A DNA stretch of 61,564 nt, counting the filler. It is 3 parts of 3 records of this genome, joined end to end, with 100 filler letters (N's around TTAATTAATTAA, not from the genome) between each part and the next. Parts side by side here need not be neighbours in the genome. Positions count along the whole stretch, not along the records: positions 27,214 to 52,832 come from DRR723986_9977; 2 more parts are not named here. One strand, given 5' to 3'. This document shows, piece by piece, positions 27,347 through 44,047 of the stretch. Numbering within the stretch: the stretch's first letter is position 1; every line of letters starts with the position of its first letter. The notes under the pieces were generated by a model. That model was not told the origin of the DNA and made no database searches. It saw only the letters and a program-made list of their open reading frames with translations. The translations under genes were made by a program, and so were the position numbers.

Positions 27347-29440
27347 ATGACTAAAACCAAAGGAAAATCAGGAAAACTACTCCTACTTGTACTGCTTTTC
27401 TTCAGTTTCTACGCTCAAGCACAGATTATTGCTCCGCCAAAATGGACGATTTCAATCGAGCCAAAAAGTCTGGTTCAAGGTGAAGAGGCTAAGTTGGTAT
27501 TCGAAGCACAAATTCCAATTGGTTGGTATATCTATGCCAATGATTTTGATCCGGATCTAGGTCCGATTTTGGCAACTTTGGAGTTGGATAATTCTGAAGA
27601 ATATACTTTGACAGGTGGTTTTAAAGCCATTGATTCCAAGACAAAATATGAAGATATCTGGGAAGGTGATGTAAAGTATTTTATAGGTAAAGGGAGGTTT
27701 GAGCAATTATTTAGCCCTAAAAGTACCTCAGGAAAGATTACCGGAACGCTGGCATATCAAATGTGTTCTGATGTCTCAGGTAAGTGTGTTAATTATGATC
27801 TTGATATAGAGACTGAATTCGAGGCTAGTGAGCCTGCTATTACCTCAACTCCTTCAGAAAGTACTGTTCTAGCAATAGATTCAGTTTCTTCTTCTGATTC
27901 TGAGACAGAGGATGCTCCTTTTGGTATCCAAGAAAATCAGGTGGATGAGCCAGTTGCTACTTCTTCTGAACCCATTGAAATTGTTGCAGTTCAGGAGAGT
28001 GAATCTCTTTGGGGATTTATGGTTTTAGCTTTCTTGGCTGGCTTGGCCGCTTTGCTTACTCCCTGTGTATTTCCAATGATACCGATGACTGTAAGTTTCT
28101 TTACTGGCCGTGCTGGGAGCAAAGCAACAGGAATACGAAATGCCATCATTTATGGCTTGTCGATTATTGCTATTTATACAATTGCTGGAACCGCAGTGGC
28201 CGCTATTCAAGGTCCTGAATTCGCCAATTGGCTCGCAACACATTGGCTTCCGAATCTTTTTTTCTTCGGGATTTTTATCTTTTTCGCCTTGGCTTTTCTT
28301 GGGATGTTTGAGATTACTTTGCCTTCTGGCTTTGTAAACAAAGTAGATGAAAAGGCTGAAAAAGGTGGTTTGACAGGGATTTTCTTTATGGCATTCACAC
28401 TCGTGTTAGTGTCGTTTTCCTGCACAGGCCCTATCGTTGGATCTATTTTGATCTCTTCGGCTGGTGGAGAATTGATTAAACCGATTCTGGGAATGTTTGC
28501 ATTCTCCCTAGCCTTTGCAATTCCATTTACGCTGTTTGCTATTTTCCCTGAATGGATGAATCGCTTGCCGAAGTCCGGTGGTTGGTTGAATTCTGTGAAA
28601 GTGGTTTTGGGATTTCTAGAACTGGCTTTAGCTTTCAAATTCCTTTCCATCGCTGATCTGGTATATCACTGGGGGATTCTTGACCGTGATATTTTCCTGA
28701 TTATTTGGATTGTGATTTTCTCTGGATTGGGACTTTATCTTTTGGGTAAAATTCGCCTTCCACACGATTCACCTATGGAGACCATAGGTGTGCCAAGACT
28801 ACTTTTGGCTTTGGCAACTTTCATGTTTGTGCTTTACATGATTCCAGGTCTTTTTGGAGCGCCGCTGAAATACCTAAGCGGTTACCTTCCTCCTATGTCC
28901 ACCCAGCAGTTTAAAATGACTGGTGGGCAAAGTATGGTTGAGGCTGGAGAGAATATCCTGGGTGAACCAGTAAAATATGCAGATATCCCACTGGAAATAC
29001 CTCTCGGCATTGAGGGTTATTTTGATTATGAGCAAGCAATGAGAGCTGCAAAAAAAGCAAATAAGCCACTTCTCATTGACTTCACTGGGCATGGATGCGT
29101 GAACTGCCGAAAGATGGAGGAAAACGTCTGGGTAGATCCGCATGTTTTGAAGAGGCTGAAAGAAGATTTTGTCATGGTGGCACTCTATATCGATGAGCGT
29201 TTGGAGCTTCCTGAAAGCGATTGGTACACCTCAGAATATGACGGAAAAGTCAAGAAGACTTTGGGTAAGCAAAATGCTGATTTCCAGATTACCCACTTTC
29301 AAAACAATGCGCAGCCTTACTATGTGATCCTAGATCATAGTGAAAATCTCCTCGCTCAGCCTAGGGGATATGAAACCGATATACAGGAATTTGTTGAGTT
29401 TTTAGACGGAGCGAAAGAGAGGTTTAAGCAAACGAATTAA
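27347..29440 (+). CDS. dsbD: Thiol:disulfide interchange protein DsbD (Bacteroidota type)
   Basis: Signal peptide and N-terminal domain 'CSDVSGKC'; TM cysteines 'TPCVFPM' and 'SCTGP'; thioredoxin 'GCVNCRKME'. Confidence 0.9.
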   Translation: MTKTKGKSGKLLLLVLLFFSFYAQAQIIAPPKWTISIEPKSLVQGEEAKLVFEAQIPIGWYIYANDFDPDLGPILATLELDNSEEYTLTGGFKAIDSKTKYEDIWEGDVKYFIGKGRFEQLFSPKSTSGKITGTLAYQMCSDVSGKCVNYDLDIETEFEASEPAITSTPSESTVLAIDSVSSSDSETEDAPFGIQENQVDEPVATSSEPIEIVAVQESESLWGFMVLAFLAGLAALLTPCVFPMIPMTVSFFTGRAGSKATGIRNAIIYGLSIIAIYTIAGTAVAAIQGPEFANWLATHWLPNLFFFGIFIFFALAFLGMFEITLPSGFVNKVDEKAEKGGLTGIFFMAFTLVLVSFSCTGPIVGSILISSAGGELIKPILGMFAFSLAFAIPFTLFAIFPEWMNRLPKSGGWLNSVKVVLGFLELALAFKFLSIADLVYHWGILDRDIFLIIWIVIFSGLGLYLLGKIRLPHDSPMETIGVPRLLLALATFMFVLYMIPGLFGAPLKYLSGYLPPMSTQQFKMTGGQSMVEAGENILGEPVKYADIPLEIPLGIEGYFDYEQAMRAAKKANKPLLIDFTGHGCVNCRKMEENVWVDPHVLKRLKEDFVMVALYIDERLELPESDWYTSEYDGKVKKTLGKQNADFQITHFQNNAQPYYVILDHSENLLAQPRGYETDIQEFVEFLDGAKERFKQTN

Positions 29441-30714
29441 TCTTGCTTCATTTTATAAGTCAGCAATCTAGGATTCACAATTAACTGTACCCAACCCCAG
29501 TTATTGGTGTTTTCTGAACTTGTTCCGCCTTTCACAGCACTCATACTTTCCGTGGCAAATAGCTGAGAGTAACCCACATTCATTTTCACATATTTTCCCA
29601 GCGAGTTACCATAAACCAAGTCAAGCTCTGTTCCCAGATTTTGTGATAAATCGTTTGCCATTTCACCGTTGGCAAAAAACACGTGAGCATTCAGACCCAA
29701 AGTGGATTTCTCTCCAGTTGGTAAGGCTATTTTTCCATAGACATCATTCAGTCCTACATTGTTGGCATGATTTCCCACGTAGAAATAATCCATGTATCCA
29801 TTGAATTTATGGTTGGTGCCATAAAGCGGGAAGAAGGATTTATTCTTTTCTTCCCCAGCTTGATCTGTCCCACTCAATGACTCAAAACCCCCAATTAAAG
29901 TCACTTTTCCAGCTTTATATTTTGCCTCAACCATGTACTGGTAGGCACTCAGATCTGTGGAGGCATTTGCCTTTCCAGTCTGCAAATAAGCTGAACCCGT
30001 AATAGTGAGAGCAGAAAGCGGGAAGGTAAAGTAAGTGCCTGTAGTCTGGCGGTAATAAAGTCCGTCTGTCTGAGGAACAGGATCGCTGCTGTACTTCTGA
30101 AAACCATTATTCATAAAGAGAAAGCTAATCGATCCTTTGTCCCATGACTTAGTAAGGTGAGCCATTTGCATGGTTTTGTAGGAGAAAAAACCAGTAATAG
30201 TGTAGTCACTACCTATGGTTTTTTGGTTCTCTTGATTGTAAGCAAAAGCTAAATCTAGCTTGAACTGATCTTTAGAATACTGAATCATTGCCGCATCATG
30301 AAATCTTCCCTGCATCGCCCAATCCACTCCACCAAGTATTCTCTGATCGTCATATGAAATCGTTTGACGGCCAAGCTTTAATGCCCAGTTTGGAGTAAAA
30401 GAATAGCGAAGCCAAGCCTGAAAAAGGCCAAAAGAGTCATTTCCATCTGCAGCACTGAGTTGCTGGGTGTCGCCCCAAGTACTTACGTCCTGTACACTTA
30501 AATAGAGGCTTAGCTTTTCGTCTTGAAAACCCAAATTGAGTCTAGATCGCTGCGTTACAAATGCTGCAGGTTTTCCATTATCTGGGAATAGGCTACCAAA
30601 GCCGTGTCTATATTCAAACCGAGGACGTATGTCCGCGTCTAATGTGAATTCCTGAGCCAATACAATTTGATGGTATGCTACGAAGGCAAGAATTAGCGTA
30701 AAAATCTTTTTCAT
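29437..30714 (-). CDS. Outer-membrane beta-barrel, alginate export (AlgE-like) family
   Basis: Signal peptide from ATG 30714 (MKKIFTL...AQ), 'RPRFEYRHG', 'KLGRQTISYDDQRILG', 'PLYGTNHKFNGYMDYF'; alternating aromatic beta-strands. Confidence 0.75.
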   Translation of the reverse strand: MKKIFTLILAFVAYHQIVLAQEFTLDADIRPRFEYRHGFGSLFPDNGKPAAFVTQRSRLNLGFQDEKLSLYLSVQDVSTWGDTQQLSAADGNDSFGLFQAWLRYSFTPNWALKLGRQTISYDDQRILGGVDWAMQGRFHDAAMIQYSKDQFKLDLAFAYNQENQKTIGSDYTITGFFSYKTMQMAHLTKSWDKGSISFLFMNNGFQKYSSDPVPQTDGLYYRQTTGTYFTFPLSALTITGSAYLQTGKANASTDLSAYQYMVEAKYKAGKVTLIGGFESLSGTDQAGEEKNKSFFPLYGTNHKFNGYMDYFYVGNHANNVGLNDVYGKIALPTGEKSTLGLNAHVFFANGEMANDLSQNLGTELDLVYGNSLGKYVKMNVGYSQLFATESMSAVKGGTSSENTNNWGWVQLIVNPRLLTYKMKQD

Positions 30715-30744
30715 AGTTCGAGTGTTAGTGGTTAAATCTCGAAC

Positions 30745-30799
30745 CAAATATAAGTATAAATACTTATTATACTTTAAATAAAATACGTATAAATACTAA
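30745..30799 (-). promoter_or_regulatory. Promoter/operator of the barrel gene: -7 box plus two TAMGTA-N4-TACKTA-type palindromes
   Basis: TATATTTG (-7, 30745-30752, minus strand) overlaps ATAAGTA-TAAA-TACTTAT (30750-30767); second copy TACGTA-TAAA-TACTAA at 30784-30799. Confidence 0.75.
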
Positions 30800-30877: not shown

Positions 30878-32320
30878 CTATTCAACTTGCTTTTCAAAAG
30901 TCTTTTTCACAAACTTCGATTTAGGAGCTTCGCAAAGAGAGCAAAGGTAGGTTTCAGGTAAGTCCTCAAATGCAGTCAATGGAGCTATTTTCTGAACCAA
31001 ATCTCCGTATGCTGGATCATAAACTGTGAGGCAATCCGAGCATTGATAAGCTTCAGTTTTTATAGTCTCCTTTGGAGTAGCCAATTTTTTGGAACCCTCT
31101 GGCTTTTTTCCCAACTGCTCGAAGTACATCTTACTTAGCTCGATCAAAAGTCCCGGCAATTCTACCTTATCCACTTCTTGTACGTAGACGATGTATTGCT
31201 GTGAGTTTGGATCAAAGTTTTTTGCATAAAGAAGATTGTACGTATTTCGGATTTTGATTCCTTCCAATCCCTCCGGTAGCTGATTTTTCTCTATGATGAT
31301 GGAGGTGAAATAATATGCCTTTCTGGTGTAATCAGTGATTCCAAAAGTAAGTCCGTAAGTACTGATGTCGCGCTTGTCAAAGTTGTCAACAAGATACTCT
31401 TTGAGTTTCAGCGCAGATTTATTGTTGACAGGAAGATGCCAATTCAGCTCCAGCATGGAGTGACGTACATTGATTCCGTAACGGCCCAGCAGTCTTTCCC
31501 ATTCGATTTTTGTGTTTTCAGGAATTCCTTTAATGATAATGGATTTCCAGGGCGTGATGGAGATTTTTCCGATTCGGCTGTCCGCACAGAGGTCACAGAG
31601 CACCTTCAAAAAGTCTATGTAGTACTTATTATTTCTCCAATACAATCCCAGCCAATAGCGATCGTCTCCCACACGATTGATGCCTTCGTAGTAGGGAAAC
31701 GGGTAAAAGGGAACTTCAAGTGGAGTGTCCACTGTACGGTTATTGGAATCCACAGCGTCATTCACCAACTCAAATAGAAACTCCACATCGGCTGGCTCTT
31801 CCTTCAAAATCTCTTCAATTGCCGCAGCTACTTTTGCTATATCCCAACTGTAGATAAGCGCTGGGTACATCATTGTCTCTTCCCATTCTGGCAGACGGAC
31901 GTACAGATACCAGTAATCCTCGTGTGCAGAAGCTATGAAATTCAAATGCCCCGTGAAAAGTGGTACAAGGCGCTGTTTGGGGTCTGTAATGTTGATTTTG
32001 AGGTTTGGCTGTACTCTGAATTGTTCCAAAATATACAGATAGCGATCCCCAGTCAGCCAAGGGGTGTTAGGAAAAATGTCTGATGAAACGTAAGAAGAAA
32101 CAATATTTTCCACCCCCAATTTCTCCGGAGACACCAATTGAAATTTATCCTGAGAATCAATTTCCAGCGTATCATCATCTTTGATAAAGAGAATATCTTG
32201 ACGAGAGCCCAATGAAATAGTGTCCAAACCGGCACTTTCTGCTAGTTCCAAAATCTGCTTTAATTCTGCGGGTGAAAGTACTCCCCCTTTCACCACTACT
32301 CTAGAATAAGTCTGTTTCAT
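30878..32320 (-). CDS. Nitrite/sulfite-reductase-fold protein lacking the siroheme/4Fe-4S cysteines, with a C-terminal rubredoxin
   Basis: N-terminus aligns by eye with the C-terminal domain of NirB in this window; C-terminal 'YQCSDC...LPETYLCSLCEAPKSKF'; ATGA overlap with nasA. Confidence 0.75.
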   Translation of the reverse strand: MKQTYSRVVVKGGVLSPAELKQILELAESAGLDTISLGSRQDILFIKDDDTLEIDSQDKFQLVSPEKLGVENIVSSYVSSDIFPNTPWLTGDRYLYILEQFRVQPNLKINITDPKQRLVPLFTGHLNFIASAHEDYWYLYVRLPEWEETMMYPALIYSWDIAKVAAAIEEILKEEPADVEFLFELVNDAVDSNNRTVDTPLEVPFYPFPYYEGINRVGDDRYWLGLYWRNNKYYIDFLKVLCDLCADSRIGKISITPWKSIIIKGIPENTKIEWERLLGRYGINVRHSMLELNWHLPVNNKSALKLKEYLVDNFDKRDISTYGLTFGITDYTRKAYYFTSIIIEKNQLPEGLEGIKIRNTYNLLYAKNFDPNSQQYIVYVQEVDKVELPGLLIELSKMYFEQLGKKPEGSKKLATPKETIKTEAYQCSDCLTVYDPAYGDLVQKIAPLTAFEDLPETYLCSLCEAPKSKFVKKTFEKQVE

Positions 32321-35300
32321 ACCAGTACTTTTGATTGGTGAAGAATCTCTCTTACCTCTGTTTTACAACTTCCGCAACCCAAACCAGCTCCTGTTTGCTG
32401 ACAAAGTGTAGTGAAGTCTGTGCATCCTCCTGCTATAGCTTCCTGGATATTTCCTTCGCCTACACGGCTACAGCTACATACTAATTTTCCTATTACTGGC
32501 CTTGTATCAGAAGATCCCATTAACAAGGATTTTCGTTTTTCAGAAAGCTCAATTTTGTTTTCGATAAGGGATTTGAACTCAGCAAATTCATTTTTATCCC
32601 CCATCAGCACAGCGCCAATTAGCAAGTCATCTTTGACAATACACTTCTTGTAATAACGCCGACTCATGTCAGCGAAAATGATTTCCTCGTAGGAGTCGTC
32701 ATTTTCAGGAATGAGAATATCTCCAATGCTGCAAAGTTCCAGATCCTTAAATTTCAGAATGTTCATCAGCACGGATCCGCTATAAATGCTACTCACATCA
32801 CCAGCGATATAATTTGCCAAAACCATAGCTTGCTCCTCAGCAGCAGAAGTGATTCCGAAGAGTTGATTTTGGAATTCTGCGATCTCGCCTATGGCAAAAA
32901 TGTTAGGATAATTGGTCTGTAAGTGCTGATTGACCTTGATGCCACGACCACATAAAATCCCGTTATCCCGGGCAATTTTGATATTCGGCTGAGTGCCAAT
33001 GGCGTAAACTACTGCATTGGCGTAAATGATTTTTCCGCTTTTCAGCGTGATGGAAAGCGACTTGTGTTCTTCATCATCGAAAACTGTGCTCACTTCGTTG
33101 TCGAAATACACGTGAATTCCACGCTCCTGCACATCCAATGAAAGCAGCTTGCTGGAAACCTCATCCAGTTGTCGTTCCATGAGTCTGGAAGCGCGCTGTA
33201 CGATGGTCACTTTTACACGATTGTGCTGTAAGGCCGCAGCAAGTTCTAGTCCCAACAAGCCACCGCCGATAATCACGACATGCTGATTTTCAGGTGGTAA
33301 CTTGGTCGAGTCTAAGTAATCTTTGAATCGATCCGCATCAATTTTACTTCGCATAGTGAATCTACCAGGCAGGTCTAGCTGAGCATCTTTCGGTATAAAA
33401 GCTCTACTTCCTGTAGCTAGGATCAACTTGTCAAAAGGATATTCTTGCCCATTATCGTCAACCACCACCTGCTTTTCAGGATCGATCTTTTCTATGGAAA
33501 GGCCAGTATGAAGAGAGATTTTAAGCTTCTGAAGCTCATATTCCTTTATCTTCTGAAGCTGCTCCCAAGTCAGTTCTTCGGTCACATATTCCGGTAATAG
33601 AACCCTGTTGTAGAACGGATGGGGTTCCTTCGAAAATACATGAATCTGATCGGAATCATTATGCTCACGGTAATTTTGGATAAAGCGGAAAGCGGCGGCT
33701 CCGGCACCCACAACCACTATTTTCTCTTTTTCTTTTTTGTATTTGGATACTGATACCGTCGTAAATTTAAAATCCGGTTCCTTGGATTGAGGATCGACTA
33801 CAGTTTTGGTCAGGTTATTCGCACGGTTTAGATCCGATTGCAATTGCTTCCCCCAGTGCATCGGTAGGAAGACCACGCCTTCTCGAATGCTTTTGGAAAG
33901 TTTTGCCTTTACTCTCACTACGCCATTCTTGCTTTTCACCTCTACCACATCTCCGTCTTTCACCTTGTCCAAATAGGCATCTATGGGATTGATTTCCAGT
34001 ACTGGACTTGGGTAATGTGTGCGAAGTCGGGATACTTTTCCTGTCTTAGTCATCGTATGCCATTGATCACGAACACGGCCGGTAGTAAGAATCAAAGGAT
34101 ATTCCTTGCTCGTTTTTTCGGAAGTATTGGCGATCTGAGCAGGGATATTGAAGATCGCTTTTTGAGTCGGTGTATAGAATTTATTGTCTGAAAATAGTCG
34201 CGCGGTTCCTGTGTGTCTGTATTCTGGAACAGGCCATTGGAATGTTCCTTCATTTTTCAACCGATCGTAATTCAGAAAGGAAATATCGATGTTCGTGCCT
34301 TTGGTCATCGCACAATATTCCTCATATATTTCCTCCGTATTGTTGTAATTAAAGCCTCGGAAACCCATTCTACGGGCAAAATCGCAAAGTATCTCTACGT
34401 CAGGTCTAGCTTCTCCTGGAGGATTGATTCCTTTGTTCAGGTAAGAAATCCTACGCTCGGAATTCGTCATCGTGCCTTCTTTCTCCAGCCATCCTGCCGC
34501 TGGCAGAACCAAATCTGCGTATTCAACCGTGTCAGCTTTGTGGGAAATATCCTGGACGACTACGAACTTGGCATTTTTCATCGCCTTTTCGATTTTCTTT
34601 GAATTCGGCAAACTCACCATAGGATTGGTACAGATGATCCATACGGCCTTCAATTCCCCACTTTCCAAAGCATCAAACATTTCAGTGGCAGATAATCCAG
34701 GTTCTGGAGAAATCTCATTTACGCCCCAAAAATTCGCGACTTCCTGTCGGTGTACAGGATTATTCAAGTCCTTGTGAACAGCCAGTAAACTCGCCATTCC
34801 ACCTACTTCACGTCCGCCCATGGCATTTGGCTGACCTGTGAGCGAGAAAGGACCATTGCCAGGTTTCCCGATTCTGCCAGTTACCAGCGAAAGATTGAGC
34901 AGGGAAAAGTTCTTATCTGTACCGATGGCGCTTTGGTTCAGGCCCATTGCCCACATGCTGATAAATCCTTTGGATTCGCCGATGATCTCGGCTACTTTTT
35001 TAATGTCGTCAACAGAAATTCCGCAGAGTTTTGAAGCTTCTTTCAAGGAAGTTGACATCACTTGCTTGCGGTACTTCAGGTAGTTTTCGGTGTGTTTTTC
35101 TATGAATTCTTTATCTGCCAGTCCGATGTCGATGATTCTACGGCCGATGGCATTGTATAAAATAATGTCCGTACCGGGAATGATTTGCAGGTGAATATCT
35201 GCGAAAGTAGCAGAATCAGTCTTGCGTGGATCTACCACGATAATCTTCACATTCGGATTTTTCTCCTTATGCTTTTCCAATCTGCGAAAGAGGATGGGAT

Positions 35301-37645: not shown

Positions 37646-37687
37646 TAAAAGTAAGTATAAATACGTAATTAATAAAAAAAATACGTA
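37646..37687 (-). promoter_or_regulatory. Promoter/operator of the nitrate transporter
   Basis: TACTTTTA (-7 variant, 37646-37653) overlaps TAAGTA-TAAA-TACGTA (37652-37667); extra TACGTA at 37682. Confidence 0.7.
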
Positions 37688-38589: not shown

Positions 38590-38648
38590 ATGCGCTTAAG
38601 TAAATACGTAGTAAAGTAACAGAATTTACGTATAATAATCTAGAAAAT

Positions 38649-40460
38649 CTAAGTCAAAGGAAGGTTGAGCGTCACTTTGGTTCCTTCGTTTGGTGAGGAA
38701 TTGATGAATAATCTTCCGTTGATGTATTTCACCCGCTCCTGCATAAAGGTCAGTCCCATTCCGCCTTCTTCGTCAGGTTTGGATTTCAGCTTTGACTTGT
38801 CGAAGCCTTTTCCATTATCATCGACGATGATGCTTAGGATATTTTGACTATGCGAGACCGTCACAATGATATGGGAGGATTCTGCATATTTAATTGCGTT
38901 GTTAATCGCTTCTTGGGTAATTCGATACAGGTTGATTTCAACCAAGGAATCTAATCGCTGGGAGAATTCAGATTTGTTGAAAAGCACAATCTCTTTTCCG
39001 GTGAGCTTTGAGAGCTCCTGAGTCAATTCCGTCAGGGCAGGGACAATTCCGTAATCTTTTAATTCAGGTGGGGTGAGATTGAAAGTAGCAGTTCTTACTC
39101 CTTTGATGATATTGGAAGTCAGCTCTTTTAGCTTAATGATCTTCACCTCGGCTTTCTCGGGATCGGTGGTGTCCACACTTTCCAGTAGGTATTTCAGTCC
39201 GGTGAGCATCTGACCGATCCCATCATGAATATCTTTTGCAATACGATTTTGCTCATTTTCCTGATTTTCGATTATTTGTCGGGAAATGACCTTTTGTTGA
39301 TGCATTTTTTCCTCGAAACTCTCCTTTGTGAGTTGCTCTACCTGATGCATAAATTCCTTACGCTTGGTAATATCCAGGCAAATCAAAATCAGTTCGGATT
39401 TGTCTTCAGCCGAATTGAAAGGAATCATGGAGACGTCAAGCCAGATATCTTCGCCAGTTTGTGAAGTGGTTTTTAACTCTCCTTCCCAACCTGCTTTTTT
39501 GTTTTCGGCGATGATGCGATCTATCGTGAGCTGCTCATTTTCGAGAGGGGAAAGCAAGTCTGAAATCTTCGCATTTATGTTGAATTTTTGTGCTTTGTAC
39601 AATCTGCTGAAGCGCTCACCTATATGGGTGATGTAACCTTCAGGAGTAATCCTTGCGAAAAGCAGAATCTGATCCATAGCTTTGCTCAAAGCCTGTAATT
39701 CCCGTACAGATTTTTCCTTGGATTGACTAAGTATATCCGCGTTTTTGGCCATTTGAATTGCTTTTTCCTCGGCATCCATCAGCTCGTGAATGCTGGCTTT
39801 CATGGCTTTTGCCGAAGGCCAAAAAATTATTAAAAACTCACCAACTAAGACCAGTAGGGTGAAAAGTGTAATGAGTAATTCTACCCGCTTCAAGTTTGAG
39901 ACTTTCTCCTTTGCTTCGTGATCATATTGGTTCACGATCTCATCCATTTTCACCAAAAAGCTTGTTGCATTACTCTCTATGCTTTTCAGCTGATCTGCCA
40001 TGGCTGTGGAGTCTGGTGCTTCGGCAGATTTGAGAAAAATGAAATTTTGTGTAGCCTCAGTGACTTGCTTGAAATAAGGATTAATCTCCTCAAACATTTT
40101 CGTGACCTCGGGACTATTTTCCACGCTGAAATCCTGGGATTCATCCCCGAGTTGCAGGATTTGATGGGCGATTTCCCAGCGAGTCATGGTGTGTTGGATC
40201 GAATCGGTGAGTGGCCCAATGGCTTCAGGAGACGTGGCTGTAGAAAGCAAAAGCACTTCCTTGTTCAGCTTTTGGCTGAGCATACGCTGCCGACCAGCCA
40301 CATTGACCAGACGGCTGTCATTTTCCTGATCATTCAGATGTTTTCTGATAAGAATCTGGCTCGCGATCAGGGAGATGGCTATAGCTCCCAAGGCAATGAT
40401 GTAAAGTCTACGTAGACGATTAAAAGTATCTTGATCCAGGGATCGCGGTGTACCAGTCAT
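38649..40460 (-). CDS. NarX/NarQ-like sensor histidine kinase (periplasmic nitrate-sensing domain, PAS, HisKA_3)
   Basis: P-box-like 'VNVAGRQRMLSQK' after TM1; PAS/PAC 'WEGELKT...IWLDVSMIP'; 'RIAKDIHDGIGQML'; 'DDNGKGF'. Confidence 0.85.
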   Translation of the reverse strand: MTGTPRSLDQDTFNRLRRLYIIALGAIAISLIASQILIRKHLNDQENDSRLVNVAGRQRMLSQKLNKEVLLLSTATSPEAIGPLTDSIQHTMTRWEIAHQILQLGDESQDFSVENSPEVTKMFEEINPYFKQVTEATQNFIFLKSAEAPDSTAMADQLKSIESNATSFLVKMDEIVNQYDHEAKEKVSNLKRVELLITLFTLLVLVGEFLIIFWPSAKAMKASIHELMDAEEKAIQMAKNADILSQSKEKSVRELQALSKAMDQILLFARITPEGYITHIGERFSRLYKAQKFNINAKISDLLSPLENEQLTIDRIIAENKKAGWEGELKTTSQTGEDIWLDVSMIPFNSAEDKSELILICLDITKRKEFMHQVEQLTKESFEEKMHQQKVISRQIIENQENEQNRIAKDIHDGIGQMLTGLKYLLESVDTTDPEKAEVKIIKLKELTSNIIKGVRTATFNLTPPELKDYGIVPALTELTQELSKLTGKEIVLFNKSEFSQRLDSLVEINLYRITQEAINNAIKYAESSHIIVTVSHSQNILSIIVDDNGKGFDKSKLKSKPDEEGGMGLTFMQERVKYINGRLFINSSPNEGTKVTLNLPLT

Positions 40461-40464: not shown

Positions 40465-41043
40465 TTAGGTAATGGCTTCTTTGACTAATTCTAAACTTGA
40501 GGGTGAAAGAGGTAATTGTAATGCTGCCCGGTGCCCTTTTTCAGACATTTTTGCCCAGGTTTTTTGAAGTATGTCGATGATTTTGGCGGATTCATGCTTG
40601 GCCGCAAATTCTTCAAAATAATATTCCAAAAAGACCAGGCAGATGACGTCTTCCATGGTTTGAGTATCTGGATCTGTTTTCAGTTGCTTCTTTCGGATAA
40701 GAAATTTCGTTCGTTCTATGGTATCTTCATCGTAGCCAGCATCCTGAAGTATCTCCGCAGCCATATCAGCATGCATCTTTTTCAGCTCTTCTCTCCACTT
40801 GAGATATCCTACTCTATCCATTGGGTAGTCTGACCTTGGAATCTTCCATCTTCCGATGTGCTGTGCCCTGACGGCTAGCTGCATAGCTTCTGATGATTCA
40901 GGATCGAATTGATCCAGTTTTTCGGTCATACGAATGGAGTACAACAGCTCTTTTGCAATCTCTTTTCCCGCTACTACTTCTTTGATGGGGTCTTCCGCAT
41001 TGACCTGATCGATCAATGTGATTGCTTTCTGGAATTTGTTCAT
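40465..41043 (-). CDS. DUF4202 family protein
   Basis: 'IDQVNAEDP', 'ELLYSIRM', 'RAQHIGRWKIPRSDYP...GYLKWR', 'EDVICLVFL', 'KTWAKMS'; start moved to ATG 41043. Confidence 0.8.
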   Translation of the reverse strand: MNKFQKAITLIDQVNAEDPIKEVVAGKEIAKELLYSIRMTEKLDQFDPESSEAMQLAVRAQHIGRWKIPRSDYPMDRVGYLKWREELKKMHADMAAEILQDAGYDEDTIERTKFLIRKKQLKTDPDTQTMEDVICLVFLEYYFEEFAAKHESAKIIDILQKTWAKMSEKGHRAALQLPLSPSSLELVKEAIT

Positions 41044-41056: not shown

Positions 41057-41434
41057 TTAATCTGCGAATCCAATATATACATTTCCCTCCTGAATCCTGA
41101 CCGGATAAGTTGCAATACTATATTCTTCTCCGTTGAGATTGCTCCCATTTTCCAGCGAAAAGGTCTTCTTGTGAAGCGGACAGGCCACCTTTGGAATTCC
41201 TTGTGAATCGCCCGTCATTCCACGGCTTAGGACCATTTCCATCTTGTGGGGGCAAAGGTTTTGGCAGGCATACCAAGAGTTGGTTCTCGTAAAATGGTAA
41301 ACGGCAACCTGTTTGGATTTGTATTTCACACAGGCACCGGCATTTGCTGGGAAGTCATCTGTCTGACCTACTTTGATCCAATGAATAGCATGTTCTTCAG
41401 CTACGGATTGATAATTTTTTAATAATTCTTCCAT
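41057..41434 (-). CDS. nirD: Nitrite reductase (NADH) small subunit
   Basis: Rieske-like 'NLCPHK...LSRG...KVACPLHK'; follows nirB. Confidence 0.93.
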   Translation of the reverse strand: MEELLKNYQSVAEEHAIHWIKVGQTDDFPANAGACVKYKSKQVAVYHFTRTNSWYACQNLCPHKMEMVLSRGMTGDSQGIPKVACPLHKKTFSLENGSNLNGEEYSIATYPVRIQEGNVYIGFAD

Positions 41435-41452
41435 GATCTTATTCGTATAGGA

Positions 41453-43963
41453 TTACCAAGGTCTAGGCATTTTTTGATCTCTCATCGGCACGAATACCAA
41501 ACTGTCGTCGGTCTCATCAGAGTTGACAAAGGGCTTAAATCGCTTCATCATTTGTGGATCTTCGATGGCTTCTTTCCATTCGCAGGCATATCGCTGCACC
41601 AGTTCCTCCATTTCTGCTTCCAGTTCCTCGCCGATTCCGAGGCTATCTTCCACCACCACTTTTTTCAAATAGTCAATTCCACCTTCCAGTTTTTCCAACC
41701 AAGGGGCTGTTCTCTGTAGAGGAGCGGCAGTTCTGATGTAATAGACTAGGAATCTATCTAAGTATTTGATGCAGGTTTCGTCATCCAGTTTTTCTGCCAA
41801 AAGGATTGCATGCTTCGGTGTAGCTCCGCCGTTTCCACAGACGAAGAGGTTCCATCCGCCTTCCACTGCGATTACGCCAAAGTCCTTTCCTCTTGCCTCG
41901 GCACATTCTCGAATACAGCCGGATACGCCACCTTTAAGCTTATGCGGGGAACGAAGACCTTTGTAGCGCTCTTCGATTCGGATCGCAAAGCTTACGCTGT
42001 CATGCAGACCATATCGGCACCAAGTCGAGCCAACACAGCTTTTGACTGTTCTAAGTGATTTGCCGTAGGCGTGTCCACTTTCAAAGCCAGCATCAATGAG
42101 TTCTTTCCAAATCATAGGAAGTTCATGAAGCTGAGCTCCAAAAAGATCAATACGCTGACCGCCCGTGATTTTGGTGTAGAGATCGTATTTCTTTGCGACT
42201 TGCCCCAAAACCATCAGTTTCTCAGGAGTAATCTCTCCGCCCGGTACTCGAGGTACTACGGAGTAAGTGCCGTTTCTTTGAATATTGGCAAGAAATCTAT
42301 CGTTGGAATCCTGAATAGGTGCCTGGCGATTGGCTGTTTCCATGTAGATACTGGCGAAAATGGAAGCCAAAACAGGTTTGCAGGTCTCACAACCATGGCC
42401 TTTGCCATGTCGATCCAGTGCTTCGTCAAAATCCATAATGCTTTGAAGCTTCACTAAATCGTACATTTCCTGACGGCTGTATTCGAAGTGCTCACAAATG
42501 GTTTCCTTCACTTCCTGCCCCATGGACTTTAAAGTCTCTTTCACCAAGTCGGTCACCATTGGTTTGCAGCCGCCGCAAGAGCTCGAGGCTTTGGTGCTCT
42601 TCACCACATCTGCGAAAGAACAGCAGGACCCACTCGTGATCGCACCACAAATGGCGCCTTTGGAGACGGCTTCGCAAGAGCAAATTTGTGCTGTATCCGG
42701 TAGATCGAGTACTGAACCCAAAGCACTTTTGCTCTCTCCACCTCTGGAACCCAAGATCAAATCTCCCGGATTCTCAGGAAGCTTCATCGCATTGATGTAA
42801 AGCTGAAAAAGGGTATTGTAATCTGAAGAATCTCCGACCATGATGCCTCCAAAGAGCTTAGAGCCATCCTTGGCGATGTTAATTCTTTTGTAAACTCCTC
42901 GTTGCTTGTTTTCATAGACAATCGCAGTGACCTCCTCATTTTCGATAAAAGGATCCCCAAAAGAAGCTACTTCCGTGCCTACCAGTTTGAGCTGAGTGGA
43001 CATATCGATGGAGGGACTCATGAGCTTTTCTCCTCCGGTGATTTGCTCCACAGCCACCCCAGCCATCTCATAGCCCGGAGCTACTAATCCGTAGATGCCA
43101 TTATTATATAGTGCCACTTCTCCGATAGCATAGATCGCCGGATCGGAGGTTTCCATTTTATTATTTACATAGACTCCGCCGCGTTCGCCAGTTTTCAAGC
43201 CACATTTCACCGCTAATTCATCTCTAGGACGAATCCCGGCGGAAATAATCAGCATGTCTGTTTGAAGTGAGGTTTCGTCCGTAAAATTGATTTTTTCGAT
43301 ACCTGCCTCACCGATGATTTCCTGGGAGTTTTTGCCAAGATGAATTTTCATCCCAAGGCTCTCAATCTTTCTCTGAAGCATATCACTGGCAGCTTTGTCC
43401 AGTTGACGAGGCATCAAGCGGGGAGCAAATTCGACTACGTCTGTCTGCATGCCTAGTTCTTTTGCTGCATTTGCAGCTTCGAGACCTAGCAAACCGCCGC
43501 CAAGGACGGAAGCCTTGAACTTCCCTTCATTCTTCAGTTTCTGAGCGTAATCCTTGATCGCATCAAGATCTTCGATGGTTCTGTAGATAAATACGCCAGG
43601 CTTGTCTACTCCTTTGATGTTCGGAACGAAGCAGGAAGAACCGGTTGCTAAAACCAGGTAGTCATATTCGAAATAATCATGCTTATGGGTAAACACACGC
43701 TTAGATTCATTTTCGATATCAGTGATCATTTCACCTGTTCGAAGTGTGATACCGTTTTCAGCATACCATTCGCGAGTAGCCAAAAGCAGCTTATCCGCAG
43801 AGTCTAGAGAGAAGTATTCACTCAGATGGACACGATCGTATGCCGGTCTGGATTCCTCGCCGAACACGGTAATCTCAAACTCATCGCGAAGTGGGTGAGT
43901 AGCTAGTTTTTCGCAAAACTTATATCCTACCATTCCATTTCCTATGACAATAACTTTCTTCAT
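41453..43963 (-). CDS. nirB: Nitrite reductase (NADH) large subunit
   Basis: 'IGNGMVG', two BFD motifs, siroheme/4Fe-4S ligands 'KSCVGSTWC' and 'SGCIREC'. Confidence 0.96.
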   Translation of the reverse strand: MKKVIVIGNGMVGYKFCEKLATHPLRDEFEITVFGEESRPAYDRVHLSEYFSLDSADKLLLATREWYAENGITLRTGEMITDIENESKRVFTHKHDYFEYDYLVLATGSSCFVPNIKGVDKPGVFIYRTIEDLDAIKDYAQKLKNEGKFKASVLGGGLLGLEAANAAKELGMQTDVVEFAPRLMPRQLDKAASDMLQRKIESLGMKIHLGKNSQEIIGEAGIEKINFTDETSLQTDMLIISAGIRPRDELAVKCGLKTGERGGVYVNNKMETSDPAIYAIGEVALYNNGIYGLVAPGYEMAGVAVEQITGGEKLMSPSIDMSTQLKLVGTEVASFGDPFIENEEVTAIVYENKQRGVYKRINIAKDGSKLFGGIMVGDSSDYNTLFQLYINAMKLPENPGDLILGSRGGESKSALGSVLDLPDTAQICSCEAVSKGAICGAITSGSCCSFADVVKSTKASSSCGGCKPMVTDLVKETLKSMGQEVKETICEHFEYSRQEMYDLVKLQSIMDFDEALDRHGKGHGCETCKPVLASIFASIYMETANRQAPIQDSNDRFLANIQRNGTYSVVPRVPGGEITPEKLMVLGQVAKKYDLYTKITGGQRIDLFGAQLHELPMIWKELIDAGFESGHAYGKSLRTVKSCVGSTWCRYGLHDSVSFAIRIEERYKGLRSPHKLKGGVSGCIRECAEARGKDFGVIAVEGGWNLFVCGNGGATPKHAILLAEKLDDETCIKYLDRFLVYYIRTAAPLQRTAPWLEKLEGGIDYLKKVVVEDSLGIGEELEAEMEELVQRYACEWKEAIEDPQMMKRFKPFVNSDETDDSLVFVPMRDQKMPRPW

Positions 43964-43982
43964 GGCTACGTAATTTAGAGCT

Positions 43983-44047
43983 CAAATATAAGTATAAATA
44001 CGTAATTCAAAAGAAAATATAAAATAAATACTTACTTATAATAAGTA
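43983..44047 (-). promoter_or_regulatory. Promoter/operator of the nirBD operon
   Basis: TATATTTG (-7, 43983-43990) overlaps TAAGTA-TAAA-TACGTA (43989-44004); further TACTTA/TAAGTA half-sites at 44029-44047. Confidence 0.75.

What the first reader, a model, noticed from the sequence alone, without database searches (positions are those of the whole stretch)
29437..44047. Self-contained Bacteroidota nitrate assimilation system with a NarX/NarL-type sensor and three uncharacterised components
Seen: nine co-oriented genes: nirB, nirD, DUF4202, sensor kinase, response regulator, NarK/NRT2 transporter, nasA fusion, rubredoxin protein and an outer-membrane barrel, tied together by a shared operator. 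Known: assimilatory nas operons in Proteobacteria are usually induced by NasR or NasS/NasT antitermination, whereas NarX/NarL control respiratory genes. No ANTAR protein is present here, and the kinase has the P-box-like AGRQRMLSQ motif plus a PAS domain. Inference: this is a distinct regulatory and electron-transfer design, with DUF4202, the rubredoxin protein and the barrel as unassigned parts.
Basis: partly seen in the sequence, partly recalled or inferred. Interest (0 to 1): 0.72.

Follow-up and report, generated by a model that had tools for sequence, protein, structure and literature searches.

The report
Bacteroidota nitrate-assimilation regulon with NarX-like sensor
This is the standard nitrate-assimilation gene cluster of an Algoriphagus-like bacterium, apparently switched by a NarX/NarL-type sensor pair through a palindromic DNA box, and it carries three conserved proteins whose roles nobody has tested.

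Summary
Nine co-oriented minus-strand genes lie at 29437-43963: nirB, nirD, DUF4202, sensor kinase, response regulator, narK, a nasA-NAD(P)H-reductase fusion, a rubredoxin-tailed protein and an outer-membrane barrel.

The shared box is real. It is a 16-bp 7-2-7 palindrome (TAMGTAT-NN-ATACKTA) at the nirB, narK and barrel promoters, with related TACGTA boxes before the regulator gene.

In 80 related Bacteroidota loci the order is conserved. The palindrome occurs 185 times against 1.6 in shuffles, and precedes narK in 58 of 58 loci. It also precedes moeA, nrtA-like, globin and mobA genes. It was found in none of 7 nasA loci lacking the kinase pair.

The kinase keeps the nitrate-binding arginine of McpN/NarX. 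The nearest genome shows no NarG or NapA.

The rubredoxin protein has a complete sulfite/nitrite-reductase fold (Z 28) but no conserved cluster cysteines. DUF4202 has an HD-like fold and sits directly before the kinase gene.

Nitrate induction itself is untested. The kinase class ("narHK/narRR") was already described in a 2021 review. Verdict: a new variant of a known kind, of moderate interest.

The parts
41453..43963 (-). nirB, NAD(P)H nitrite reductase large subunit (836 aa)
   Evidence: NCBIfam NF011565 scores 1083 bits against a cut-off of 883. Pfam finds Pyr_redox_2, Rubredoxin_C, Fer2_BFD, NIR_SIR_ferr and NIR_SIR.
41057..41434 (-). nirD, Rieske-type small subunit (125 aa)
   Evidence: TIGR02378 scores 110.8 bits against a cut-off of 74.65.
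40465..41043 (-). DUF4202 protein (193 aa from the ATG at 41043), HD/PDE-like helical fold, function unknown
   Evidence: PF13875, E 1e-78. The AF2 model has pLDDT 95.4. The best VIA match is the HD-superfamily hydrolase 2pq7 at Z 11.8, and nearly all of the 50 listed entries are HD-domain, phosphodiesterase or alarmone-hydrolase proteins. In the phylum sample the gene lies directly upstream of the kinase gene in 10 of the 13 genomes that have DUF4202.
38649..40460 (-). Sensor histidine kinase of the 'narHK' class (603 aa): NarX/PilJ-like periplasmic domain, PAS, HisKA_3, HATPase_c
   Evidence: Pfam domains. The only PDB hit of the sensor part is the McpN nitrate-binding domain 6GCV, which shares NVAGxQRMLSQK. 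Kinase R59 aligns with McpN R61. The motif is kept in 66 of 66 orthologues.
37927..38589 (-). NarL/FixJ-family response regulator ('narRR', 220 aa)
   Evidence: REC plus GerE. NarL model: 154.8 bits, below its cut-off of 250. Best PDB hits are VraR at 2.6e-33 and NarL (1a04) at 3.8e-33.
36200..37624 (-). NarK-family MFS nitrate/nitrite transporter (474 aa)
   Evidence: TIGR00886 scores 292 bits, below its cut-off of 311.7. Pfam finds MFS_1.
32317..35841 (-). Assimilatory nitrate reductase NasA/NasC module (residues 1-700) fused to a NirB-N-terminal-like NAD(P)H reductase module (705-1174)
   Evidence: Molybdop_Fe4S4, Molybdopterin and Molydop_binding, then Pyr_redox_2, Rubredoxin_C and Fer2_BFD. 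NasC model E 2.8e-164; NirB model matches residues 708-1170.
30878..32320 (-). Sulfite/nitrite-reductase-fold protein without conserved cluster cysteines, with a C-terminal rubredoxin (480 aa); its start overlaps the nasA stop (ATGA)
   Evidence: Pfam finds only NIR_SIR_ferr (5-46) and Rubredoxin (425-470). The AF2 model has pLDDT 92.5. Model residues 5-407 superpose on SiRHP 81-546 at Z 28.0. In 90 homologues the only invariant cysteines are 427, 430, 460 and 463.
29437..30714 (-). Outer-membrane barrel of the alginate-export family, probable anion channel
   Evidence: PF13372 scores 32.2 bits against a cut-off of 25.2. The N-terminus looks like a signal peptide. It has its own operator. It lies next to the cluster in 29 of 80 loci.
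43989..44004 (-). 7-2-7 palindromic operator at the nirB promoter; its last two bases begin a TAnnTTTG box
   Evidence: Exact match. Sequence context. Conserved in 8 congeners.
43967..43972 (-). TACGTA box in the nirB leader, just before the ATG
   Evidence: Conserved in 7 of 8 congeners; the eighth has TACTTA.
44127..44166 (-). Two further TACGTA boxes upstream of the nirB promoter
37652..37667 (-). 7-2-7 palindromic operator at the narK promoter
   Evidence: Exact match. A palindrome lies within 250 nt upstream of narK in 58 of 58 related loci.
37682..37687 (-). Extra TACGTA box 20 nt upstream of the narK operator
   Evidence: (repeat families D1, D9, D20).
38605..38632 (-). Two TACGTA boxes in the 59-nt gap between the kinase and regulator genes (probable autoregulation of the regulator gene)
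   Evidence: Conserved in congeners. A full palindrome precedes the regulator gene in 40 of 71 related loci.
30751..30799 (-). Operator (30751-30766, one mismatch to the 16-mer, full palindrome) and a second box (30784-30799) before the barrel gene
36133..36183 (-). Strong hairpin followed by a U-run between narK and nasA, terminator-like
   Evidence: Centroid -25.8 kcal/mol, z -3.65, 0 of 200 shuffles fold as well. Inverted repeat I14. By my reading of the sequences, 7 of 8 congeners (all but L011) carry a hairpin-forming stretch of different sequence at the same place.

Best explanation
The cluster is the nitrate-assimilation regulon of an Algoriphagus-like member of the Cytophagales.

Inferred pathway, from the families present:
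1. Nitrate crosses the outer membrane, probably through the alginate-export-type barrel.
2. NarK takes it up.
3. The cytoplasmic NasA reduces it to nitrite, using electrons from its own fused NAD(P)H/FAD/[2Fe-2S] module.
4. NirBD reduces nitrite to ammonium.

Inferred control:
- The kinase binds periplasmic nitrate in its NarX/PilJ-type four-helix domain and sets the phosphorylation state of the NarL-family regulator.
- The regulator dimer binds the 7-2-7 palindrome TAMGTAT-NN-ATACKTA, and single TACGTA heptamers, at the promoters of nirB-nirD-DUF4202-kinase, of the regulator gene itself, of narK(-nasA-rubredoxin protein) and of the barrel.
- Elsewhere in the genome it binds before moeA.
- The palindrome lies between the -33 and -7 promoter elements. 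Whether the regulator activates or represses there is therefore open; either way the outcome would be nitrate-dependent expression.

The rubredoxin-tailed protein with a sulfite/nitrite-reductase fold is most likely a dedicated redox or assembly partner of NasA. DUF4202 is an HD-like protein tied to the kinase operon.

Shown here: the genes, the folds, the box, its conservation and its co-variation with the kinase/regulator pair. Inferred: nitrate binding, the identity of the protein that binds the box, the direction of control, and the roles of the three unassigned proteins.
For: Gene content and domains.

Synteny:
- 8 of the 10 relatives' DUF4202 loci fetched, all of the same genus, carry the cluster in the same order; the other two, from other families, do not.
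- In 80 loci centred on the rubredoxin protein, from Algoriphagus, many Flavobacteriaceae and one Labilibaculum MAG, the neighbours found were: nasA 76, regulator 73, kinase 69, DUF4202 65, narK 63, nirD 61, nirB 31 (limited by the flank length) and barrel 29. All lie on the same strand and in the same order.

Operator:
- Three exact or near-exact copies in the window.
- 185 palindromes in the 1.60 Mb of the 80 loci, against a mean of 1.6 in 20 local shuffles. 77 of 80 loci have at least one; the three without are contigs of 1.9, 3.2 and 12.8 kb.
- A palindrome lies upstream of narK in 58 of 58 loci, of the regulator gene in 40 of 71, of the barrel in 12 of 27, and of nasA in 12 of 75.
- Other sites precede moeA (17 loci), an NrtA-like binding protein (12), a globin (6), a Crp/Fnr regulator (3), mobA (2) and cobA (1).
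- In the nearest genome, G001, all three zero-mismatch sites lie in the cluster. One of the two further loci with a one-mismatch site lies 36 nt before moeA.
- The box tracks the kinase/regulator pair. Seven 20-kb loci from 6 genomes that have nasA or the rubredoxin gene but no orthologue of the pair contain 0 palindromes. The one distant locus that has the pair contains one, 51 nt before its barrel gene.

Sensor:
- The only PDB hit of the sensor part is the nitrate-binding domain of McpN (6GCV).
- Kinase G56, R59 and M60 align with McpN G58, R61 and M62, the residues that contact nitrate.
- The motif is invariant in 66 of 66 orthologues.

No respiratory target was found. G001 (99% complete) has only two molybdopterin-oxidoreductase frames, NasA and a YdeP/FdhF-like protein.

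Phylum sample of 301 genomes:
- The kinase orthologue is in 11 genomes, and all 11 also have the rubredoxin protein and the fused NasA.
- DUF4202 directly precedes the kinase gene in 10 of the 13 genomes that have it.
Against: - There is no expression, binding or genetic evidence. No RNA run was listed for this DNA.
- The palindrome overlaps the core promoter. Its end lies 25-27 nt from the ATG at most narK sites. In textbook systems that is a repressor position, so simple activation by the phosphorylated regulator is not assured.
- nasA and the rubredoxin gene have no box of their own in this window. They lie behind a strong terminator-like hairpin and a 358-nt gap, so their co-regulation with narK assumes read-through.
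- The kinase and regulator score far below the NarX/NarQ/NarL equivalog cut-offs. The kinase lacks HAMP and GAF-like parts, so its signalling may differ from NarX.
- The regulator gene lacks a full palindrome upstream in 31 of 71 loci, and the barrel in 15 of 27.
- No regulator of nitrogen status (ammonium repression) was identified. The physiological purpose, assimilation versus redox balancing, is therefore inferred from enzyme types.
- Related genomes are not independent, so the locus counts overstate the statistical support.
Confidence: 0.78

Rival explanations
1. The genes and sensor are as above, but the regulator is a repressor. It occupies the palindrome inside the promoter when nitrate is absent, and nitrate sensing releases it. 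This is derepression, not NarL-style activation.
For: - The palindrome lies between a TTTG and a TAnnTTTG element and overlaps the latter by 2 nt.
- Its end is 25-27 nt from the narK ATG in most loci, 23-25 nt for nirB and 26-29 nt for most barrel genes.
- A further TACGTA box lies in the nirB leader just before the ATG.
- From my own knowledge, NarL represses when its sites overlap a promoter.
Against: - Extra heptamers lie about 20 nt and further upstream of the palindrome, which would fit an activator bound near position -40.
- The narK promoters show no clear -33 TTTG, which suggests they depend on an activator.
- The promoter elements were recognised from a recalled consensus, and no transcription start was mapped.
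Confidence: 0.3
2. The palindrome belongs to a different regulator, such as a global nitrogen regulator or a Crp/Fnr-type protein, and the kinase/regulator pair controls something else or only fine-tunes expression.
For: - No binding data exist.
- A Crp/Fnr-family gene with the box upstream lies in 3 loci.
- Sixteen-bp palindromes suit many dimeric regulators.
Against: - The box is absent from 7 of 7 nasA or rubredoxin-gene loci that lack the pair, and present in the one distant locus that has it.
- It precedes the regulator gene itself in 40 of 71 loci.
- Two inverted heptamers separated by 2 bp is the arrangement I recall for NarL-family dimers.
- The Crp/Fnr gene is present in only 3 of the 80 loci.
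Confidence: 0.08
3. The cluster mainly serves cytoplasmic nitrate/nitrite ammonification for redox balancing or nitrite detoxification, as E. coli NirBD does. On this view expression follows nitrate alone, not nitrogen demand.
For: - The sensor is of the type known from respiratory control (PMC8199190, passages read).
- No nitrogen-status regulator was seen in the cluster.
- A globin gene shares the box in 6 loci, which suggests that NO is handled as a by-product.
Against: - NasA is a cytoplasmic NAD(P)H-linked enzyme of the assimilatory type.
- Some loci replace or add to NarK with an NrtA-type ABC binding protein, which I recall as typical of high-affinity assimilatory uptake.
- No respiratory nitrate reductase was found in G001.
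- The hosts are, from my own knowledge, aerobic marine heterotrophs.
Confidence: 0.12

Closest known systems
Bacteroidetes 'narHK/narRR' nitrate sensor class (Gushchin et al. 2021, PMC8199190; passages, section 4 and the legend of figure 3 read)
   Same: This is the same protein class: a NarX-like sensor domain, no HAMP or GAF-like part, and a PAS domain in the Flavobacteriales/Cytophagales group around the Indibacter alkaliphilus kinase. The review shows it next to nitrate genes. One of its example records (JH651379) is my locus L050.
   Different: In the passages I read, the review gives no operator, no regulon, no statement that the targets are assimilatory, and nothing on DUF4202, the rubredoxin protein or the barrel. 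The figure itself and the supplementary datasets were not seen.
E. coli NarX-NarL / NarQ-NarP with 7-2-7 heptamer sites
   Same: Both have a periplasmic four-helix sensor with a conserved arginine that binds nitrate, a HisKA_3 kinase core and a REC-GerE regulator. Both use inverted heptamers with a 2-bp spacer plus single heptamers. From my own knowledge, nirBD is among the E. coli targets.
   Different: The kinase has no HAMP, S-helix or GAF-like part and carries PAS instead. Scores are far below the equivalog cut-offs. The heptamer is TACGTAT or TAAGTAT, whereas I recall TACYYMT for NarL. The main site overlaps the core promoter. The targets are assimilatory genes, and no Nar or Nap was found in the nearest genome.
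NasR and NasS-NasT nitrate-responsive antitermination (Klebsiella, Paracoccus; PMC3795266 and PMC5424462, abstracts in the search listing only)
   Same: The physiological task is the same: nitrate- or nitrite-dependent induction of nas genes.
   Different: Those systems act on RNA through an ANTAR domain. Here none of the nine proteins has ANTAR, and control appears to act at DNA palindromes.
McpN PilJ-type nitrate chemoreceptor domain (PDB 6GCV; PMC6381276, passages read)
   Same: It is the only solved structure hit by the sensor part. It shares NVAGxQRMLSQK, including the arginine that hydrogen-bonds nitrate.
   Different: McpN is a chemoreceptor, not a kinase. The match is weak (E 0.012, 73 residues).
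Assimilatory sulfite/nitrite reductase hemoproteins (E. coli SiRHP 1AOP/4G38, M. tuberculosis NirA 1ZJ8, plant NiR), for the rubredoxin-tailed protein
   Same: The whole two-repeat fold is present: Z 28.0, rmsd 3.7 A, 375 residues aligned, model 5-407 on SiRHP 81-546. Foldseek gives E 7e-18. Several basic residues are conserved.
   Different: There are no conserved cysteines in the body and no Pfam NIR_SIR domain match. Identity is 12-18%. A rubredoxin is added at the C-terminus. The gene always sits next to nasA, not next to a nitrite or sulfite pathway gene.
Two-subunit NADH nitrate reductases (Klebsiella NasA/NasC, Bacillus NasB/NasC; recalled)
   Same: A molybdopterin catalytic part works with a NirB-N-terminal-like FAD/NAD(P)H electron-donor part.
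   Different: Here both parts are one 1174-aa polypeptide. Frames of 1170 aa or more occur in 17 of the 301 sampled Bacteroidota genomes.
HD-domain / PDE superfamily phosphohydrolases, for DUF4202
   Same: The overall helical fold matches: Z 11.8 to 2pq7, and nearly all of the 50 listed entries are HD-domain, phosphodiesterase or alarmone-hydrolase proteins.
   Different: There is no sequence-level match to any HD family. The conserved histidine 63 is followed by isoleucine, not aspartate. For helical proteins a Z under about 13 may reflect only a common arrangement.

Membership tests
NarX/NarQ-type nitrate-sensing histidine kinases | N-terminal NarX-like/PilJ four-helix periplasmic sensor domain | tested here: met
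   PF13675 PilJ at residues 43-143, E 1.4e-14, 54.5 bits against a cut-off of 26.6. Hydrophobic stretches flank it in the sequence.
NarX/NarQ-type nitrate-sensing histidine kinases | Conserved arginine of the ligand-binding helix (P-box) that binds nitrate | tested here: met
   R59 aligns with McpN R61 within NVAGxQRMLSQK. The motif is kept in 66 of 66 orthologues.
NarX/NarQ-type nitrate-sensing histidine kinases | HAMP, signalling helix and GAF-like region between the membrane and the DHp domain | tested here: not met
   Pfam finds no HAMP or GAF; it finds PAS_9 at 271-366. This agrees with PMC8199190.
NarX/NarQ-type nitrate-sensing histidine kinases | NCBIfam NarX or NarQ equivalog score over the cut-off | tested here: not met
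   NarQ 89.8 bits against 553; NarX 78.8 bits against 578. Only the C-terminal kinase core matches.
NarX/NarQ-type nitrate-sensing histidine kinases | Binds nitrate or nitrite and changes kinase/phosphatase balance | not testable with these tools
   Needs ITC and phosphotransfer assays.
NarL/FixJ response regulators | REC domain plus GerE/LuxR helix-turn-helix | tested here: met
   PF00072 E 1.7e-30 and PF00196 E 5.7e-21. Full-length match to NarL 1a04, E 3.8e-33.
NarL/FixJ response regulators | NarL equivalog score over the cut-off | tested here: not met
   154.8 bits against 250.
NarL-type 7-2-7 binding sites | Two inverted heptamers separated by 2 bp | tested here: met
   TACGTAT-TT-ATACTTA at 43989-44004 and 37652-37667. 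The palindrome occurs 185 times in the 80 loci.
NarL-type 7-2-7 binding sites | Heptamer consensus TACYYMT (recalled, not from a call) | tested here: inconclusive
   TACGTAT agrees at 5 of 7 positions and has GT where YY is expected. The consensus is quoted from memory.
NasR / NasS-NasT antitermination systems | ANTAR RNA-binding domain protein in or near the nas cluster | tested here: not met
   No ANTAR among the nine proteins. The whole-genome search of G001 found none, but the control rang in no genome, so that search is uninformative.
Assimilatory nitrate reductase NasA/NasC | Cytoplasmic Mo-bisPGD enzyme with an N-terminal Fe4S4 domain and no export signal | tested here: met
   Molybdop_Fe4S4 starts at residue 5, followed by Molybdopterin and Molydop_binding. 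The NasC model gives E 2.8e-164 but 548 bits, under its cut-off of 1100.
NirBD NAD(P)H nitrite reductase | Equivalog or subfamily scores over the cut-off for both subunits | tested here: met
   NirB 1083.1 bits against 883; NirD 110.8 bits against 74.65.
Siroheme-[4Fe-4S] sulfite/nitrite reductases (rubredoxin-tailed protein) | Two-repeat SiR/NiR hemoprotein fold | tested here: met
   Z 28.0, rmsd 3.7 A, 375 residues aligned to 4g38. The model has pLDDT 92.5.
Siroheme-[4Fe-4S] sulfite/nitrite reductases (rubredoxin-tailed protein) | Four conserved cysteines that hold the [4Fe-4S] cluster and bridge to siroheme | tested here: not met
   In 90 homologues the only invariant cysteines are the four of the rubredoxin. 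The body has only two partly conserved ones, at 56% and 74%. No residue-level superposition was available.
Rubredoxin | CxxC...CxxC iron site and rubredoxin fold | tested here: met
   C427, C430, C460 and C463 are invariant. PF00301 E 3e-15. Z about 10 at rmsd 1.1 A to rubredoxins.
HD-domain phosphohydrolases (DUF4202) | HD fold with the H...HD...D metal-binding motif | tested here: inconclusive
   The fold matches at Z 11.8 and below. Conserved H63, H92 and D133 exist, but H63 is followed by I, not D. No residue-level superposition was made.
Alginate-export (AlgE-like) outer-membrane channels (barrel) | Pfam Alginate_exp over the cut-off, plus a signal peptide | tested here: met
   32.2 bits against 25.2, residues 36-326. 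The N-terminus MKKIFTLILAFVAYHQIVLAQ looks like a signal peptide. No structure was predicted, and there is no PDB sequence hit.

The most novel reading that the evidence does not exclude
The rubredoxin-tailed protein is a working enzyme of a new kind. It would be a sulfite/nitrite-reductase-fold catalyst that has replaced the [4Fe-4S] cluster with a tethered rubredoxin. It would draw electrons from the rubredoxin-reductase-like module fused to NasA. It would carry out a third, unrecognised step of nitrate assimilation, such as removal of hydroxylamine or NO, or hand-over of nitrite. In the same reading, DUF4202 is an HD-type enzyme that feeds a metabolic signal into the NarX-like kinase, and the regulator activates transcription from inside the -33/-7 spacer of a Bacteroidota promoter.
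Probability: 0.12. Interest if true: 0.8.

Novelty: new variant of a known kind. Interest (0 to 1): 0.55.

Why it matters
Marine and soil Bacteroidota are major consumers of organic matter. Whether and when they compete for nitrate affects nitrogen budgets.

This work gives a concrete, testable regulatory model for their nitrate use:
- a defined sensor;
- a defined 16-bp operator;
- a predicted regulon that reaches molybdenum-cofactor genes, ABC nitrate transporters and a globin.

It also narrows three conserved unknowns to specific hypotheses:
- a sulfite/nitrite-reductase-fold partner of NasA that lacks the cluster cysteines;
- an HD-like protein tied to the kinase gene;
- a nitrate-regulated outer-membrane channel.

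The operator motif can be used at once to annotate nitrate regulons in Bacteroidota genomes and metagenomes.

Tried and rejected
- **RNA evidence.** The look-up of sequencing runs listed no RNA holder for window 35800-44100.
- **Complex prediction.** The NasA reductase module (alignment A4) against the rubredoxin-tailed protein (alignment A1) gave no verdict (score 0.00). This is not evidence either way.
- **Profile comparison.** hhalign of A1 against the window's NirB aligned only the NIR_SIR_ferr half-domain, with probability 5%. The cysteine positions could therefore not be compared by sequence, and I relied on column counts.
- **ANTAR search.** The search of G001 found nothing, but the control rang in no genome, so it is uninformative.
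- **Rfam.** It found nothing in the narK-nasA gap above chance. In the whole window it found only a tRNA.
- **Solved structures.** The barrel has no PDB sequence hit. The Foldseek search of the PDB with the DUF4202 model gave no match at E <= 0.001.
- **Literature.** 'DUF4202' returned 0 papers. Apart from chance word matches, 'narHK/narRR' returned only the 2021 review. Three further searches on Bacteroidetes or Flavobacteria nitrate assimilation, rubredoxin, porin or NarL found no experimental study of this cluster. Papers outside the held library were not searched.
- **Riboswitch or antitermination at the narK-nasA hairpin.** I considered this and rejected it. There is no ANTAR protein and no Rfam match, and the hairpin followed by a U-run looks like an ordinary, possibly leaky, terminator.
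- **DUF4202 context outside the cluster.** In G040 its neighbours are glutaminase, a kinase, a radical-SAM protein and a CLC channel. This gave no functional lead.

Full report
**Observation**

The window carries nine co-oriented minus-strand genes between 29437 and 43963. Pfam and NCBIfam assign them as follows.

- NirB: 1083 bits against a cut-off of 883.
- NirD: 110.8 bits against 74.65.
- A DUF4202 protein: PF13875, E 1e-78.
- A 603-aa histidine kinase with a PilJ/NarX-like N-terminal domain (residues 43-143), PAS_9 (271-366), HisKA_3 and HATPase_c.
- A REC-GerE response regulator.
- A NarK-family transporter.
- A 1174-aa NasA, whose molybdopterin module (1-700) is fused to a NirB-N-terminal-like module (Pyr_redox_2, Rubredoxin_C, BFD [2Fe-2S]; 705-1174).
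- A 480-aa protein in which Pfam sees only a NIR_SIR_ferr half-domain (5-46) and a rubredoxin (425-470).
- A barrel of the alginate-export family: 32.2 bits against 25.2.

AGRQRMLSQ is at kinase residues 55-63.

Two starts should be moved. DUF4202 begins at the ATG at 41043, giving 193 aa like its homologues. The barrel begins at the ATG at 30714, before a signal-peptide-like sequence.

The flanking genes are unrelated to nitrate: a convergent dsbD, and an ndk on the same strand upstream. The best named relatives are Algoriphagus species. The nearest held genome, G001, has the same cluster at 96-99.5% protein identity over eight of the nine genes, and 97.9% for DUF4202.

**The shared box**

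- TACGTATTTATACTTA is exact before nirB (43989-44004) and before narK (37652-37667). It has one mismatch before the barrel (30751-30766). There are 7 matches with up to 3 mismatches against 0.32 expected.
- Read as a palindrome, TAMGTA-N4-TACKTA, it matches only these three places in 61.5 kb, with 0.00 expected.
- It consists of two inverted heptamers with a 2-bp spacer: TACGTAT-TT-ATACTTA.
- Single TACGTA boxes accompany it. Two lie further upstream of nirB, and one lies in the nirB leader just before the ATG. One lies 20 nt upstream of the narK site, and two lie in the 59-nt gap between the kinase and regulator genes. One lies before the barrel.
- TACGTA occurs 18 times in the window against 4.8 expected. 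By my placing of its coordinates on the gene map, nine lie in the cluster's intergenic DNA.
- nasA has no box. It lies 358 nt behind narK, after a strong hairpin followed by a U-run: -25.8 kcal/mol, z -3.65.

**Conservation of the cluster**

- Ten of 41 sampled relatives have DUF4202. Of these 10, the 8 of the same genus have the cluster in the same order. The 2 from other families do not.
- A scan of one genome per species with the rubredoxin protein found 571 confirmed stretches. The best 80 loci were kept, with 10-kb flanks.
- Around the rubredoxin gene, on the same strand and in the same order, tblastn found nasA in 76, the regulator in 73, the kinase in 69, DUF4202 in 65, narK in 63, nirD in 61, nirB in 31 and the barrel in 29 of 80. 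The nirB count is limited by the flank length, and several loci are cut by contig ends.
- The nasA stop and the rubredoxin-gene start overlap as ATGA in the window and in 10 of 23 loci examined.

**Conservation of the box**

- The palindrome occurs 185 times in the 1.60 Mb of the 80 loci, against a mean of 1.6 in 20 local shuffles. It is present in 77 of 80 loci; the three without it are contigs of 1.9, 3.2 and 12.8 kb.
- It lies within 250 nt upstream of narK in 58 of 58 loci, of the regulator gene in 40 of 71, of the barrel in 12 of 27 and of nasA in 12 of 75.
- Its end lies 25-27 nt from the narK ATG in most loci.
- The remaining sites precede moeA (17 loci), an NrtA-like NMT1_2 binding protein (12), a globin (6), a Crp/Fnr regulator (3), mobA (2) and a tetrapyrrole methylase (1).
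- In G001 the degenerate 16-mer with up to one mismatch gives six strand hits at five loci. The three zero-mismatch hits are all in the cluster. One of the two further loci is 36 nt before moeA. The reversed control pattern gave three hits.

**Link between the box and the kinase/regulator pair**

In a sample of 301 Bacteroidota genomes:

| Feature | Genomes |
|---|---|
| Rubredoxin protein | 15 |
| Fused NasA (frame of 1170 aa or more) | 17 |
| Kinase orthologue (frames of 589-622 aa, E <= 2e-36) | 11 |
| DUF4202 over the cut-off | 13 |

- Of the 15 genomes with the rubredoxin protein, 14 have the fused NasA.
- Three genomes have a fused NasA without the rubredoxin protein.
- All 11 genomes with the kinase orthologue also have the rubredoxin protein.
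- In 10 of the 13 genomes with DUF4202, the gene lies directly upstream of the kinase gene.

I then fetched eight 20-kb loci. Seven of them, from six genomes, have nasA or the rubredoxin gene but no orthologue of the pair, and they contain no palindrome. The eighth is a distant locus with the pair (34-48% identity), and it has one palindrome 51 nt before its barrel gene. The sample is small and the genomes are related, but the box follows the regulator.

**The sensor**

- The only solved structure matched by the first 254 residues is the nitrate-binding PilJ domain of McpN (6GCV): E 0.012, 73 residues, sharing NVAGxQRMLSQK.
- In McpN, G58, A59 and M62 contact nitrate, and R61 makes two hydrogen bonds to it. 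The NarX site is conserved with it (PMC6381276, passages).
- These residues align with kinase G56, R57, M60 and R59.
- The motif N[VI][AS]GRQRMLSQK is kept in 66 of 66 orthologues whose alignment covers it.
- The kinase and regulator score far below the NarX, NarQ and NarL equivalog cut-offs, and HAMP and GAF are absent.
- This matches the class that Gushchin et al. 2021 described and labelled narHK/narRR.
- G001 (99% complete) has only two molybdopterin-oxidoreductase frames, NasA and a YdeP/FdhF-like protein. No respiratory nitrate reductase was found for the sensor to control.

**The three unassigned proteins**

(a) The rubredoxin-tailed protein.
- It belongs to a full-length family of about 480 aa: 1140 cluster representatives at E <= 1e-3 and 163 at E <= 1e-30, reaching down to 25% identity.
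- Its AF2 model (pLDDT 92.5, pTM 0.86) superposes over residues 5-407 on E. coli sulfite reductase hemoprotein residues 81-546. The match has Z 28.0, rmsd 3.7 A and 375 residues aligned. Plant and mycobacterial nitrite reductases match at Z 23.6-24.9 (Foldseek E 7e-18).
- In 90 homologues the only invariant cysteines are the four of the rubredoxin. The body has two partly conserved ones, at 56% and 74%.
- Several basic residues and one histidine are conserved: positions 7, 40, 108, 229, 264, 307 and H287. An anion or tetrapyrrole pocket therefore cannot be excluded.
- Two earlier notes of this scan on other genomes reached the same reading. They are not independent evidence.
- Tight coupling to nasA makes a dedicated NasA partner, either redox or assembly, the most likely role. 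The complex prediction gave no verdict.

(b) DUF4202.
- The model has pLDDT 95.4.
- The best match is an HD-superfamily hydrolase (2pq7): Z 11.8, rmsd 4.4 A, 157 residues aligned. Nearly all of the 50 listed entries are HD-domain, phosphodiesterase or alarmone-hydrolase proteins. For helical proteins this Z range is not decisive.
- H63, H92 and D133 are conserved, but there is no HD dyad.
- Its adjacency to the kinase gene suggests a role in the signalling or nitrite branch. No specific function can be assigned.

(c) The barrel.
- It is a member of the alginate-export family with its own operator.
- It is most simply a nitrate- or nitrite-permeable outer-membrane channel.
- It is optional, lying next to the cluster in 29 of 80 loci.

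**Mechanism and open points**

The best-supported model is a nitrate-sensing two-component system that acts on 7-2-7 palindromes to control a regulon of uptake, reduction and cofactor genes.

The palindrome sits between a TTTG and a TAnnTTTG element. I recognise these from memory as the Bacteroidetes -33 and -7 elements. The palindrome overlaps the second element by 2 nt. Whether the regulator activates or represses therefore cannot be decided from sequence.

Transcription of nasA and the rubredoxin gene in this window must pass the narK hairpin or start at an unrecognised promoter. The gap is enlarged here by about 250 nt. The two ends of that stretch match 11 other places in G001 at 75-91% identity.

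No regulator of nitrogen status was identified.

**Novelty**

In print:
- the kinase class and its neighbourhood to nitrate genes, though only as sequence analysis;
- from my own knowledge, NarL-type control of nirBD in E. coli.

Not found in my searches:
- the operator and its regulon;
- its co-variation with the kinase/regulator pair;
- the fold of the rubredoxin-tailed protein;
- the HD-like fold of DUF4202 and its linkage to the kinase gene.

The library searched is limited. The figures and supplements of the review were not seen.

I rate this a new variant of a known kind, interest 0.55.

Noticed in passing
window 54000-60000: A stretch with G+C 0.53-0.59 lies in a window that is otherwise 0.38-0.49. 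It encodes a GyrB/ParE-like protein (54014-55930), a CitMHS/TrkA_C transporter, an EAL-domain protein, cytochrome b561 and YceI. A tRNA lies at 51622-51693. It may be foreign DNA or an assembly join.
   Followed up: partly
window 35850-36125: The narK-nasA gap is about 250 nt longer here and in G001 than in other congeners. The two ends of this stretch match 11 other places in G001 at 75-91% identity, which suggests small dispersed repeats.
   Followed up: partly
window 37779-37808 and 44415-44444: A 30-nt inverted repeat pair, 73% complementary, lies in the regulator-narK and ndk-nirB intergenic regions (I1). It looks like copies of a REP-like element flanking the first operon.
   Followed up: no
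L049:20282-20695 and five other flavobacterial loci: A 137-aa single-domain globin gene carries the nitrate palindrome upstream. This recalls the globin in the Bradyrhizobium nas cluster (PMC4724949, abstract in a search listing only) and hints at NO handling during assimilation.
   Followed up: partly
L044:12687-14063 and 11 other loci: In some Flavobacteriaceae an NrtA-like (NMT1_2) lipoprotein gene with the palindrome lies downstream of the cluster. About a dozen loci show no narK, or only a 28%-identical MFS gene, between the regulator gene and nasA. The transporter therefore seems exchangeable.
   Followed up: partly
phylum sample, family f43: In 23 of 49 genomes of one other Bacteroidota family, a NarX/PilJ-like sensor domain (23-36% identity to residues 1-220 of the kinase) sits on frames of roughly 410 to 1240 aa, many near 1000 aa. 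These genomes lack the rubredoxin protein. This looks like a different class of nitrate-type sensor.
   Followed up: no
L092 (record titled as an Acidimicrobiia MAG): This locus carries the flavobacterial-type cluster at 66% identity to the rubredoxin protein, in the usual gene order. The contig was probably placed in the wrong bin.
   Followed up: no
G113, G049, G304 (loci L113-L115): Fused NasA genes (frames of 1172-1199 aa, 48-50% tblastn identity to the whole NasA) occur in high-G+C Bacteroidota genomes without the rubredoxin protein, the kinase pair or the palindrome. The fusion is therefore older or more widespread than the rest of the system.
   Followed up: partly
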